Sequence record: PV805631.1
Reading direction: 5' to 3' (one strand)
DNA from: a phage
DNA length: 64,000 nt
Both the position numbers and the translations under genes were made by a program. Shown here piece after piece: positions 26,780 through 27,961 of this stretch. Every line of letters starts with the position of its first letter. The stretch's first letter is position 1. The notes beneath the pieces are model-generated. The model was not told where the DNA came from. It searched no databases and was given only the letters and a program-made list of their open reading frames with translations.

Positions 26780-27961
26780 ATATCGTGAAGGGTTCTGTCA
26801 GAATCCTTTGAGATAGGAACTCCTATCATAACCTTTCTTAACTTAATCTTTGCCGTATGGCACTGACGCTAGGGGTGGCCCCCCATCCGTCAGACAGACT
26901 ATTTTAAGAATAGGTTATCTCAGAAAATGTAAAGCAACATTTGGGTTAATCAATGGCCTCTACCTATAGGGGCCATTTCTGAATCTTAGGCTATATCCCA
27001 AAGGTTAGTATCTTTGGGATAAGGCTTCAGATCCCTTATCAAACTAACTGCTCAATGTTGAGTATATTAACTAACCAAGCCCAGTAAGGGGGCGGGAGTT
27101 TAATGCCGGTAAGCATAAGCCTATCCGTCTACAACATCGAAGTGTTAGGTCTTACATGCGATATAGGGTATAAAGGGAGGATTCGTCCCCTCCCTCCTAT
27201 TATGAACCAATTCAAAGTAGCACTCGTTTATACTTCCAGGTATTCAAAGACACATTCTTGTGTGAGTGCTACTCTGAATTGAAAGAATTAAGACGGGTCT
27301 GGTGAAGTAGATGGGGTTCGATTCCCTCCGGTGGAGTAATCCACTAGCGTGCTTGGTGCACGAATAAGACTTAGTACTGGTGGTTCGATTCCATCCCCCG
27401 TTACCCGAAGTCGCCAGGTACTTATGGCAAACAACGAGGTAGTAACGAACTAGTCATTCGTCAAACGCCCACCCAATTATGAGTCAGCAAGAACGCCTTC
27501 ACTTAAACTTAAACAAAAAAGCTTAACGCAATAATTATGTAGGGGTATGTAAGGATTGCGAAGAAGGAGCCAGTTAGAGCCTGGCATGGCTCACCTATTG
27601 CATTACCAAGCCACTAGGCAAGTACTGTTAAGCAGTATACACGTTATGAGCCTCCTGGGGGCTAGTGGAAGTTGCCAACATCAACGAGATGTCCTGTGTT
27701 GTCTCTGAGGCTGCTTGGTAGTGCATTCTAATCAGCAGTAACATAGTCCTGATTGCATAGCACTCTAAAGACAACACTGGTAAGACAGTCCAGTGGCTGC
27801 TAATGTATTGTTATTCCCCTCGACGGGAATTTCGCTAGTGAAGGTAACACTTAAAAATCCAAACCCACGTCTTACTACTATCGGGCTATCAACCCACGGT
27901 CGCTTAACCCTGTAGTGATAGTAGTTTGACGGCCTGCCTCGTTGACTGCGTTAAAGTCACT

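What the first reader, a model, noticed from the sequence alone, without database searches (positions are those of the whole stretch)
27310..27403. Two copies of the tRNA T-arm motif GGTTCGATTCC 67 bp apart
GGTTCGATTCC occurs at 27315-27325 and 27382-27392. The second copy can form a T-stem (GGTGG/CCATC) followed by a 7-nt acceptor-like 3' strand (CCCCGTT) that pairs with GATGGGG at 27310-27316, but the span is about 94 nt and I could not place a canonical D-arm or anticodon arm. This could be a degenerate or unusual tRNA, a tRNA-like structure, or remnants of tRNA genes.
Basis: partly seen in the sequence, partly recalled or inferred. Interest (0 to 1): 0.5.

Follow-up and report, generated by a model that had tools for sequence, protein, structure and literature searches.

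The report
Phage tRNA-like RNA with two T-arms
The two tRNA-like motifs belong to one conserved, unannotated ~113-nt phage RNA that folds like a tRNA whose anticodon arm has been replaced by a second small tRNA-like module. It is shared by unrelated enterobacterial phages, and no tRNA finder or RNA-family library available here recognises it.

Summary
GGTTCGATTCC occurs exactly twice in the window, at 27315-25 and 27382-92.

Both copies are genuine T-arms of one structured RNA, window 27291-27403 on the + strand. It lies in a ~1.2-kb non-coding locus of a G7C-like N4-type coliphage.

Five helices are supported by compensatory changes. Across 22 sequences 97% of cells are paired, 22 of 27 pairs change on both sides, and 0 of 500 shuffles reach that. 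A sixth 2-bp mini D-arm closing a UGGU loop is also supported.

The real 5' strand is 27291-97.

- **Not a tRNA:** ARAGORN and Rfam find nothing, and there is no anticodon arm.
- **Not decayed tRNA genes:** the fold is under selection.
- **Not T4 rnaC/rnaD, tmRNA or YrlA:** each fails defining features.

Close homologs occur in E. coli and Klebsiella N4-like phages and inside the tRNA arrays of T4-like phages. There they sit 2 nt from neighbouring tRNAs in four arrays and up to 17 nt in one. Distant copies with the same layout occur in metagenomic phage contigs. None of 5,426 E. coli genomes has it.

Most likely it is a stable tRNA mimic cut out by tRNA-processing enzymes. Its function is unknown. 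My best guess is that it binds or titrates a host factor that recognises tRNA.

The parts
27291..27297 (+). P1 5' strand: closing, acceptor-like stem (AGACGGG). It pairs with 27397-27403. The first pair is A x A in G7C-type phages and Watson-Crick or G.U in most others.
   Evidence: 7 pairs, all with double-sided changes. 95% of cells are paired in 17 close homologs and 97% in 5 distant ones.
27298..27305 (+). P2 mini D-arm: a 2-bp stem (U27298-A27305, C27299-G27304) closing the loop UGGU (27300-03), whose GG is invariant.
   Evidence: Pair 8:16 is UA10/AU6/CG3/GC1 and pair 9:15 is CG8/UA8/AU1/GU1 in 22 sequences. These columns were not in the model's structure. GG is invariant in the core set.
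27306..27312 (+). 5' joiner A-GUAGAU, invariant in the core family. GUA (27307-09) may pair with UAC (27375-77) as a short connecting stem, P3.
   Evidence: Sequence conservation. P3 is 86-90% paired but almost invariant, so it is only weakly supported.
27313..27327 (+). P4 = T-arm 1: 4-bp stem GGGG/CCCU (27313-16/27324-27) with T-loop UUCGAUU (27317-23). It contains the first 11-mer.
   Evidence: 100% paired. The second pair is GC/CG/UA/AU and the outer pair is GU/AU/GC/CG.
27330..27345 (+). P5 hairpin: 6-bp stem GGUGGA/UCCACU with loop GUAA. Loop size and sequence vary between lineages.
   Evidence: 5 of 6 pairs have double-sided changes.
27348..27362 (+). P6 hairpin: 5-bp stem CGUGC/GCACG with the conserved loop UUGGU. 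This is a D-arm-like hairpin carrying a GG.
   Evidence: All 5 pairs have double-sided changes in the 22-sequence set. Loop UUGG is invariant in the core, and GG is retained in 4 of 5 distant copies.
27363..27378 (+). 3' joiner AAUAAGACUUAGUACU, with GACUUA invariant in the core family.
   Evidence: Conservation profile.
27379..27395 (+). P7 = T-arm 2: 5-bp stem GGUGG/CCAUC with T-loop UUCGAUU (27384-90). It contains the second 11-mer.
   Evidence: 100% paired, and 3 of 5 pairs have double-sided changes.
27396..27396 (+). Single unpaired C between T-arm 2 and the closing stem.
   Evidence: C in all 17 core copies and in 3 of 5 distant copies.
27397..27403 (+). P1 3' strand (CCCGUUA). It is followed by a non-conserved tail (CCC here), and no CCA is encoded.
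   Evidence: Tails vary (CCC, CCU, AAC, AUU, UUU, UCC).
27209..27290 (+). Upstream context: a long hairpin (27209-27281) and the leader GAAUUGAAAGAAUUA, which immediately precede the element. The leader is also conserved in the Klebsiella phages.
   Evidence: The hairpin arms show compensatory changes in UE-S5a.
27962..27993 (+). Intrinsic terminator that closes the ~1.2-kb non-coding small-RNA locus (about 26790-27995).
   Evidence: 13-bp stem followed by a T-run. It is annotated as a terminator in G7C and PhAPEC5.

Best explanation
Window 27291-27403 (+) is the gene for a small, stable, non-decoding tRNA mimic. Its outer shell is tRNA-like. A 7-bp acceptor-like stem abuts a canonical 5-bp T-arm, and a miniature D-arm (2 bp closing a UGGU loop) follows the 5' strand. 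Where a tRNA has its anticodon arm, this RNA has a second module. That module is a 4-bp T-arm, a closed hairpin, and a D-like hairpin whose loop carries GG. This is the same T / closed stem / D order as the tRNA-like domain of bacterial YrlA RNAs. The fold and its conservation are shown. The following steps are inferred. The RNA is transcribed as part of the phage's tRNA and small-RNA locus. It is cut out by RNase P at the 5' side and by 3' trimming, with CCA possibly added, like its tRNA neighbours. Each T-loop docks on a GG loop, giving two tRNA-like 'elbows'. My best guess for function (about 0.3) is that it acts in trans by binding or titrating a host factor that recognises the tRNA elbow or acceptor end, such as a tRNA-processing or modifying enzyme or a tRNA-directed defence protein. 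The confidence given applies to the claim that this is a structured, independently selected, tRNA-mimicking RNA gene that does not decode. It does not apply to the specific trans function.
For: Structure:
- RNAalifold on a plain MAFFT alignment recovers both T-arms and both hairpins.
- The explicit model gives 98.5% paired cells, 16 of 30 pairs with double-sided change and 0 of 500 shuffles in 9 sequences. Slid controls give 37-56%.
- In 22 sequences it gives 97.3% paired, 22 of 27 pairs double-sided and 0 of 500 shuffles.
- The mini D-arm is supported by four Watson-Crick pair types.

Not coding: copy lengths of 98-115 nt differ by amounts that are not multiples of 3.

Unit of a tRNA array:
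- VR5 has tRNA-Met, then X, then tRNA-Arg, then an rnaD homolog.
- PEi20, KLB31 and L075 have X 2 nt from a tRNA.
- L082 has tRNA-Gly, 2 nt, X, 2 nt, tRNA-Arg.
- The Klebsiella N4-like phages have X downstream of a 3-5 tRNA cluster on the same strand.

Selection and mobility:
- X is 75-79% identical between Schitoviridae and Straboviridae.
- X and one other 68-nt block are the only parts of the locus alignable between the E. coli and Klebsiella N4-like phages.
- X is retained in this window and in G7C, which have no canonical tRNA.
- Invariant unpaired motifs (GG, GUAGAU, UUGG, GACUUA) point to tertiary contacts or a specific partner.
Against: - There is no expression, end-mapping or processing data for this RNA in any phage.
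- No CCA is encoded and the 3' tails vary.
- A single unpaired C separates T-arm 2 from the closing stem, which canonical RNase P substrates lack.
- The thermodynamic signal is unremarkable: z = -0.53, and the single-sequence MFE fold differs from the covariation model.
- No conserved protein partner gene was found nearby.
- The two-elbow docking and the decoy function are inferences from tRNA, tmRNA and YrlA structural knowledge and were not tested.
Confidence: 0.75

Rival explanations
1. X is a purely cis-acting processing or stability element. It is a tRNA-shaped 'punctuation mark' that recruits RNase P to cut the long small-RNA and tRNA precursor or to protect flanking RNAs, and the excised RNA has no function of its own.
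For: It sits between other RNA units. Phage ST4 carries a different cassette in the same slot behind the same leader sequence, which suggests interchangeable modules. An acceptor stem plus T-arm is enough for RNase P recognition (established knowledge; YrlA precedent in PMC4201824).
Against: A simple RNase P handle needs only the acceptor/T-arm minihelix. Here the inner T-arm, both hairpins and about 25 unpaired nucleotides are conserved between phage families. X is retained in phages whose locus has no tRNA to process.
Confidence: 0.2
2. X is a functional but highly unusual decoding tRNA, or an aminoacylated tmRNA-like rescue RNA, that standard finders miss.
For: It has an acceptor-like stem, a canonical T-arm and D-loop-like GG motifs. 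Several T4-like copies have a G.U in the closing stem, which falls at position 3:70 if the first of the 7 pairs is not counted. It occupies tRNA slots in arrays.
Against: The only hairpins with a 7-nt loop are the two T-loops, and loop sizes elsewhere are 4-6 nt and variable. In T-loop 1 the would-be anticodon middle base varies G/A between close relatives, and the base at would-be position 37 is a pyrimidine. ARAGORN gives no tRNA or tmRNA call. Rfam tRNA gives nothing, and tmRNA gives only a 13-nt, 10.9-bit fragment against a 47-bit threshold. The G.U is not conserved across lineages, and there is no tag ORF in 113 nt.
Confidence: 0.05
3. X is the decaying remnant of two tRNA genes fused by deletion between their T-arm repeats and has no function.
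For: Relatives carry tRNA genes in the same locus, and the window has none. The region is mosaic, and an HNH homing endonuclease gene lies just upstream. X may well have arisen this way.
Against: Compensatory changes maintain all helices across three lineages. The same architecture is found in distant metagenomic phages. X is better conserved than almost all surrounding non-coding sequence.
Confidence: 0.03
4. X is a DNA-level element, for example an integration (att) site, a homing-endonuclease target or a recombination hotspot built on a tRNA-like sequence, rather than an RNA gene.
For: HNH endonuclease genes lie near the window copy and the L097 copy. Cassettes are swapped at this site between related phages. 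In T4 the homing endonuclease gene segB lies within the tRNA cluster. That it cuts there is from my own knowledge.
Against: A DNA target would conserve sequence, not base-pairing through compensatory double substitutions. These phages are virulent, and no integrase was seen in the ORFs examined. The element's strand is always that of the neighbouring tRNAs.
Confidence: 0.03

Closest known systems
T4 RNAC and RNAD (species 1 and 2 RNAs) of the T4 tRNA cluster
   Same: They are small stable RNAs encoded inside a phage tRNA array on the same strand as the tRNAs, and their function is unknown (PMC3014915, PMC9697503). In contig L075, X occupies the position directly after tRNA-Arg that rnaD holds in T4.
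   Different: There is no sequence or model similarity. VR5 has both X and an rnaD homolog (84% identity), so they are separate genes. rnaD has no T-loop, and rnaC has one T-arm, not two.
Bacterial Y RNA YrlA (tRNA-like domain)
   Same: The inner module has the same order of T-arm, closed 'acceptor' stem-loop and D-like stem-loop as the YrlA tRNA-like domain. YrlA-like RNAs also occur in phages, and M. smegmatis YrlA is cut by RNase P and gets CCA (PMC4201824).
   Different: No copy has the 5' GNCGAA(N)G Ro-binding motif. No TROVE/Ro60 gene was found among flanking ORFs. No Rfam family, bacterial Y RNAs included if Rfam holds them, matched at E<=10. X has a second, outer tRNA-like shell with its own T-arm and a terminal acceptor-like stem, which YrlA lacks.
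tmRNA tRNA-like domain
   Same: An acceptor stem sits directly next to a T-arm, and a much reduced D region carries a GG that presumably docks on the T-loop. The rest of the molecule is inserted where the anticodon arm would be.
   Different: X is 113 nt with no tag reading frame and no pseudoknots. The G3.U70 alanine identity pair is not conserved. ARAGORN finds no tmRNA, and Rfam tmRNA matches only 13 nt at 10.9 bits against a 47-bit threshold.
Canonical and non-canonical tRNAs (including 8/4 and 9/3 allo-tRNAs and tRNA-Sec)
   Same: A 7-bp closing stem plus a 5-bp T-stem, a T-loop of UUCRAYU type with a G-C closing pair, and tight packing in tRNA gene arrays.
   Different: There is no anticodon arm. 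A second T-arm and two extra hairpins sit in its place. An unpaired C lies between the T-stem and the acceptor strand. No tRNA finder available here calls it.

Membership tests
tRNA | Anticodon arm: a ~5-bp stem with a 7-nt loop (U33, anticodon, purine 37) | tested here: not met
   The only 7-nt loops are the two T-loops. The other loops are 4-6 nt and variable. ARAGORN calls no gene in the window, and Rfam tRNA has no match even at E<=10.
tRNA | 7-bp acceptor stem stacked on a 5-bp T-stem, with a UUCRANY T-loop closed by G53-C61 | tested here: met
   P1 (7 bp) is followed by T-arm 2 (5 bp, loop UUCGAUU) and both covary. One deviation is an unpaired C between them.
tRNA | D-arm with G18 G19 that docks on the T-loop | tested here: inconclusive
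   There is a 2-bp mini-stem closing UGGU after the 5' strand and a second GG in the P6 loop. Docking itself cannot be tested with these tools.
tRNA | 3' CCA end and aminoacylation | not testable with these tools
   CCA is not encoded and the tails vary. Post-transcriptional addition and charging need experiments.
tmRNA | Tag-peptide reading frame with resume codon, plus pseudoknots | tested here: not met
   The RNA is 113 nt. ARAGORN finds no tmRNA, and Rfam RF00023 matches only 13 nt at 10.9 bits against a 47-bit gathering score.
tmRNA | G3.U70 alanine identity pair in the acceptor stem | tested here: not met
   A G.U at that position is present in five of the seven T4-like copies (if the first of the 7 pairs is not counted) and absent from CkP1 and L160 and from the N4-like copies.
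YrlA / bacterial Y RNA | GNCGAA(N0-1)G Ro-binding motif near the 5' end (PMC4201824) | tested here: not met
   A regular-expression search of all 22 aligned copies found none.
YrlA / bacterial Y RNA | Encoded within ~4 kb of a Ro60 (TROVE) gene on the same strand (PMC4201824) | tested here: not met
   Pfam scans of flanking ORFs in the window and in L031, L072 and L097 found HNH, AAA_24, ERF and similar domains but no TROVE. Only neighbouring ORFs were scanned.
YrlA / bacterial Y RNA | tRNA-like domain with stem-loops in the order T, closed acceptor-like stem, D | tested here: met
   The inner module runs T-arm 1 (P4), then P5, then P6 with a GG loop, and all three are supported by covariation. 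This is a resemblance of layout only.
T4 rnaC / rnaD | Sequence or structural homology to T4 species 1 or 2 RNA | tested here: not met
   The alignment is poor. Models R1 and R2 do not hit T4 rnaC or rnaD. BLAST of rnaD+rnaC against the window locus finds nothing, but it finds an rnaD homolog next to X in VR5.
tRNA pseudogene / gene remnant | No selection on base-pairing, with substitutions accumulating freely | tested here: not met
   22 of 27 pairs show compensatory double changes, 97% of cells stay paired, and 0 of 500 shuffles reach this.

The most novel reading that the evidence does not exclude
X is the founding member of a widespread, so far unrecognised class of phage 'double-elbow' tRNA mimics. 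Phages of unrelated families exchange it horizontally. It acts in trans on the host's tRNA-handling machinery. For example, it could be a high-affinity decoy that disarms a tRNA-directed defence or toxin, or a bridge that engages two tRNA-binding sites at once on RNase P, the ribosome or a modification enzyme. It would then give a functional handle on the 50-year-old puzzle of what the non-tRNA stable RNAs in phage tRNA clusters are for.
Probability: 0.12. Interest if true: 0.85.

Novelty: new variant of a known kind. Interest (0 to 1): 0.62.

Why it matters
Phage tRNA clusters are increasingly seen as counter-measures to host attacks on translation. The non-tRNA stable RNAs in those clusters (T4 RNAC and RNAD) are still unexplained. 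This element is a third such RNA, distinct from both.

It has an unusually clear, covariation-backed fold: a tRNA shell carrying a second tRNA-like module. It has been exchanged between N4-like and T4-like phages of enterobacteria. It is kept even in phages that have lost all their tRNA genes.

It was not annotated as an RNA in any of the 45 GenBank records that hold it, and ARAGORN and Rfam both miss it. It is small, sits in genetically tractable coliphages, and is directly testable by deletion, end-mapping and pull-down.

In practical terms, annotation pipelines currently leave it blank or put spurious ORFs over it.

Tried and rejected
- **tRNA or tmRNA finders:** ARAGORN finds none in the window.
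- **Rfam:** nothing at gathering thresholds. At E<=10 over 26500-28600 only terminator-driven chance hits and a 13-nt tmRNA T-loop fragment appear.
- **Single-sequence folding:** uninformative on both strands (z = -0.53 and +0.08), and the MFE fold differs from the covariation model.
- **Homology to T4 rnaC/rnaD:** rejected.
rejected by comparison.
- **YrlA membership:** rejected, with no GNCGAA motif and no TROVE neighbour.
- **Loose IMG/VR pattern (two T-loops 40-60 nt apart):** returned more than 120 loci that turned out heterogeneous. Only a subset share the enclosing stem, with 19 perfect stems against 4.7 expected.
- **Family-specific pattern in 185,579 bacterial and archaeal genomes:** gave 15 matches, none confirmed by model R1 at E<0.001 or R2 at E<0.0001.
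- **E. coli genomes:** blastn found no match.
- **L132, L134, L139:** these share GTAGAT, a T-arm and GACTTA in tRNA-array gaps but are a different RNA.
- **Extra covarying column pairs:** a loose scan was mostly noise. Only the mini D-arm (8:16, 9:15) stood up. The GUA/UAC helix remains weak.
- **Literature:** six searches found no description of this RNA.

Full report
**The observation.** GGTTCGATTCC occurs at 27315-27325 and 27382-27392 on the + strand and nowhere else in the window, even with one mismatch allowed. Shuffles give a mean of 0.36 matches, and 3 of 100 reach two. ARAGORN finds no tRNA or tmRNA anywhere in the 64 kb. Rfam finds nothing at gathering thresholds. A permissive Rfam scan of 26500-28600 gives only terminator-like chance hits and a 13-nt tmRNA T-loop fragment, at 10.9 bits against a 47-bit threshold.

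**Context.** The window is a G7C-like N4-type coliphage of the genus Gamaleyavirus, family Schitoviridae. It is 98.8% identical to vB_EcoP_G7C over 20-40 kb. The finding lies in a ~1.2-kb stretch without credible ORFs, about 26790-27995 on the + strand. Upstream are gp47.2 and an HNH endonuclease gene. Downstream is the 3759-aa virion RNA polymerase gene on the opposite strand. A strong intrinsic terminator at 27962-27993 closes the stretch.

The locus is mosaic among relatives. Many carry ARAGORN-callable or annotated tRNA genes in it (Ile, Cys, Thr, Ala, Val, 'OTHER'). The window and G7C carry none. The annotated tRNA-Ile slot of relatives maps to window ~27600-27731, not to the finding.

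**The element is conserved and mobile.** A 133-nt query around the finding hits 45 phage records:
- 28 E. coli or Shigella N4-like phages at 90-98% identity.
- Klebsiella N4-like phages (Kaypoctavirus) at ~75%.
- T4-like Straboviridae (Dhakavirus VR5, Gaprivervirus, Kanagawavirus PEi20 and KLB31, Karamvirus CkP1) at 77-79%.

In none of the 45 records is the match annotated as an RNA. Most list no feature there, and two list protein-coding features. In the T4-like phages it lies inside the tRNA array:
- VR5 has tRNA-Met, then X, then tRNA-Arg.
- PEi20 and KLB31 have X 2 nt after a tRNA.
- Contig L075 has tRNA-Arg, 2 nt, then X.

In the Klebsiella phages X lies downstream of a cluster of 3-5 tRNAs on the same strand. 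Between the E. coli and Klebsiella N4-like phages, only X with its short leader and one other 68-nt block of the locus can be aligned at all. None of 5,426 complete E. coli genomes contains X. A family-specific motif scan of 185,579 bacterial and archaeal genomes gave no match that the models confirm.

**Structure.** On a plain MAFFT alignment of nine copies, RNAalifold independently predicts both T-arms and two intervening hairpins. After trimming to exact boundaries, I tested an explicit model:
- 98.5% of cells are paired, against 37-56% when partners are slid.
- 16 of 30 pairs change on both sides.
- 0 of 500 shuffles reach these values.

A covariance-model alignment of 22 copies, 17 close and 5 distant, gives 97.3% paired, 22 of 27 pairs with double-sided changes and 0 of 500 shuffles. 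That alignment is fitted to the model, so it leans towards it. The unguided result guards against this.

The helices, in window coordinates:

| Helix | Coordinates | Notes |
|---|---|---|
| P1 | 27291-97 / 27397-403 | Closing, acceptor-like stem, 7 bp |
| P4 | 27313-16 / 27324-27 | T-arm 1, loop UUCGAUU |
| P5 | 27330-35 / 27340-45 | Loop GUAA |
| P6 | 27348-52 / 27358-62 | Loop UUGGU |
| P7 | 27379-83 / 27391-95 | T-arm 2, loop UUCGAUU |

A single unpaired C (27396) separates P7 from P1.

A scan for further covarying columns found a 2-bp mini-stem, P2 (27298-99 / 27304-05), closing the conserved loop UGGU. Its pairs use UA/AU/CG/GC and CG/UA/AU/GU, and these columns were not in the model. I found P2 after looking at many column pairs, so I rate it probable rather than certain. 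A 3-bp helix, GUA 27307-09 with UAC 27375-77, is compatible with the data but almost invariant, so it is weak.

Unpaired GG, GUAGAU, UUGG and GACUUA are invariant in the core family. Copy lengths run from 98 to 115 nt and differ by amounts that are not multiples of three, which argues against coding.

GATGGGG (27310-16) with CCCCGTT (27396-402) is 7/7 only in G7C-type phages. It falls to 4-6/7 in other close homologs (80% of cells) and to 48% in distant ones. Its 5' strand overlaps T-arm 1, which is always paired. P1 scores 95% and 97%.

**What it is.** Read as a cloverleaf, X has:
- an acceptor-like stem;
- a miniature D-arm;
- a short connecting stem;
- a one-base variable region;
- a canonical T-arm.

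The anticodon loop is replaced by a three-hairpin insert: a second T-arm, a closed stem, and a D-like hairpin with a GG loop. This is the T / closed acceptor / D order described for the tRNA-like domain of YrlA (PMC4201824). So it looks like a tRNA-like module nested in a tRNA-like shell, with two T-loops and two GG loops available to form two elbows. The elbows are an inference from tRNA structural knowledge.

**What it is not.**
- **Not a tRNA.** It has no anticodon arm, and no finder calls it.
- **Not a tmRNA.** It has no tag frame or pseudoknots and no conserved G3.U70.
- **Not YrlA.** It has no GNCGAA motif and no TROVE gene among neighbours.
- **Not T4 rnaC or rnaD.** There is no similarity, and VR5 carries an 84%-identical rnaD homolog next to X.
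- **Not gene debris.** The covariation rules that out.

T4 RNAC and RNAD, the closest analogues by context, are themselves of unknown function (PMC3014915, PMC9697503).

**A wider class.** An IMG/VR scan for two T-loops 40-60 nt apart returned more than 120 tRNA-rich loci.
- In 74 of 119 matches neither T-arm lies in an ARAGORN tRNA.
- Perfect 7-bp stems enclosing both arms occur in 19 of 117 matches, against 4.7 expected from permuted 3' strands.

The set is heterogeneous. A subset (L031, L061, L072/L081, L097, L082) reproduces the design. All have the closing stem, the 5' GG and both T-arms. Most also have a GG-loop hairpin and the unpaired base before the 3' strand. They score 35-47 bits with model R1. 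L082 sits exactly between tRNA-Gly and tRNA-Arg with 2-nt spacers. A broader model, R2, adds about eight more contigs at 35 bits or above. Ordinary tRNAs cross-hit at about 25-32 bits. These loci were pre-selected by the pattern, so the true prevalence is unknown.

**How it most likely works.**

Shown:
- a conserved fold under selection;
- tRNA-array placement and orientation;
- horizontal sharing between phage families;
- retention in phages without tRNAs.

Inferred:
- co-transcription with the locus;
- excision by RNase P and 3' trimming, with possible CCA addition;
- modification of the T-loops;
- two elbows.

The function is unknown. The strict conservation of the inner module and of the joiners argues for a specific partner rather than a mere RNase P handle. 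I therefore favour a trans-acting tRNA mimic or decoy (about 0.3) over a purely cis-acting processing element (about 0.2).

**Literature.** Six full-text searches found no description of this RNA. The library omits much of the subscription and older T-even literature, so an earlier description cannot be excluded.

**Verdict.** This is a real, previously unannotated structured RNA: a new variant of the known kind 'tRNA-like small RNAs of phages'. It is of moderate to high interest and directly testable.

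Noticed in passing
window 27734-27802 (+): A second small structured RNA candidate. It has a 5-bp closing stem, GCAGU/GCUGC, whose inner pair varies U.G / C-G / U-A. A 6-bp hairpin, CACUGG-UAAGACAGU-CCAGUG, abuts the 3' strand and shows one C-G to U-A compensatory change. A 35-nt invariant single-stranded stretch lies between them. It is 88-91% identical between the E. coli and Klebsiella N4-like phages, so it is better conserved than the double-T-arm element. In relatives it starts 1-2 nt after tRNA-Ile.
   Followed up: partly
window 26790-27995 (+): The whole ~1.2-kb non-coding locus behaves as a swap-site for small RNA cassettes. Conserved blocks alternate with slots that hold tRNA genes or other sequences in relatives. 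The window has 132 nt of unrelated sequence (27600-27731) where relatives have tRNA-Ile.
   Followed up: partly
L004 (phage ST4) 2443-2608: In place of the double-T-arm element, ST4 carries a different, apparently structured cassette. It sits behind the same leader (GAATTGTAAGAATTA), starts TGGGGGTAAG and includes ...ACGCCCCTACCA about 60 nt in, which resembles a CCA-ended RNA.
   Followed up: no
window 27209-27281 (+): A long, nearly perfect hairpin lies directly upstream of the element and shows compensatory changes in UE-S5a. The leader GAAUUGRAAGAAUUA between the hairpin and the element is also conserved in the Klebsiella phages. It may be a processing site.
   Followed up: no
L002 3047-3125; L003 3017-3092 and 3098-3176; L004 2802-2874: The relatives' tRNA calls are odd. 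One is a 79-nt 'tRNA-Ile' with anticodon AAT. Another is a 'tRNA-???' with a 2-base anticodon, annotated elsewhere as Thr or OTHER. They may be non-canonical tRNAs or further tRNA-like RNAs.
   Followed up: no
L132 404-977; L134 6704-7068; L139 1486-1850: Large phage tRNA arrays contain an unannotated conserved sequence in a gap between tRNAs. It has GTAGAT, one T-arm (YCGG TTCGAAT CCGR) and GACTTA. The double-T-arm models do not match it, so it is possibly yet another tRNA-like RNA.
   Followed up: no
L005 (VR5) 2674-2801: An unannotated homolog of T4 rnaD (84% identity) lies immediately after tRNA-Arg in Dhakavirus VR5. The VR5 array is therefore tRNA-Met, X, tRNA-Arg, rnaD.
   Followed up: partly
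IMG/VR loci L012-L131: 74 of 119 double-T-loop matches (spacing 40-60 nt) have neither T-arm inside an ARAGORN tRNA call, although the loci are rich in tRNA genes (741 calls). Some look like truncated 'mini-tRNAs' next to a tRNA (for example L033). This looks like a large pool of uncalled tRNA-like units in phages.
   Followed up: partly
window 26077-26574 (+); L097 2066-2728 (-): HNH homing-endonuclease genes lie close to the small-RNA locus in the window (HNH_3 + AP2) and near the distant copy in L097 (HNH_3 + NUMOD4). This recalls segB in the T4 tRNA cluster and may drive the cassette exchange.
   Followed up: no
L008 (Klebsiella phage K60PH164C1) 1-3114: The GenBank record annotates RIIA and RIIB 'lysis inhibitor' pseudogenes across the tRNA and small-RNA locus, including the element. 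This looks like an annotation artefact.
   Followed up: no
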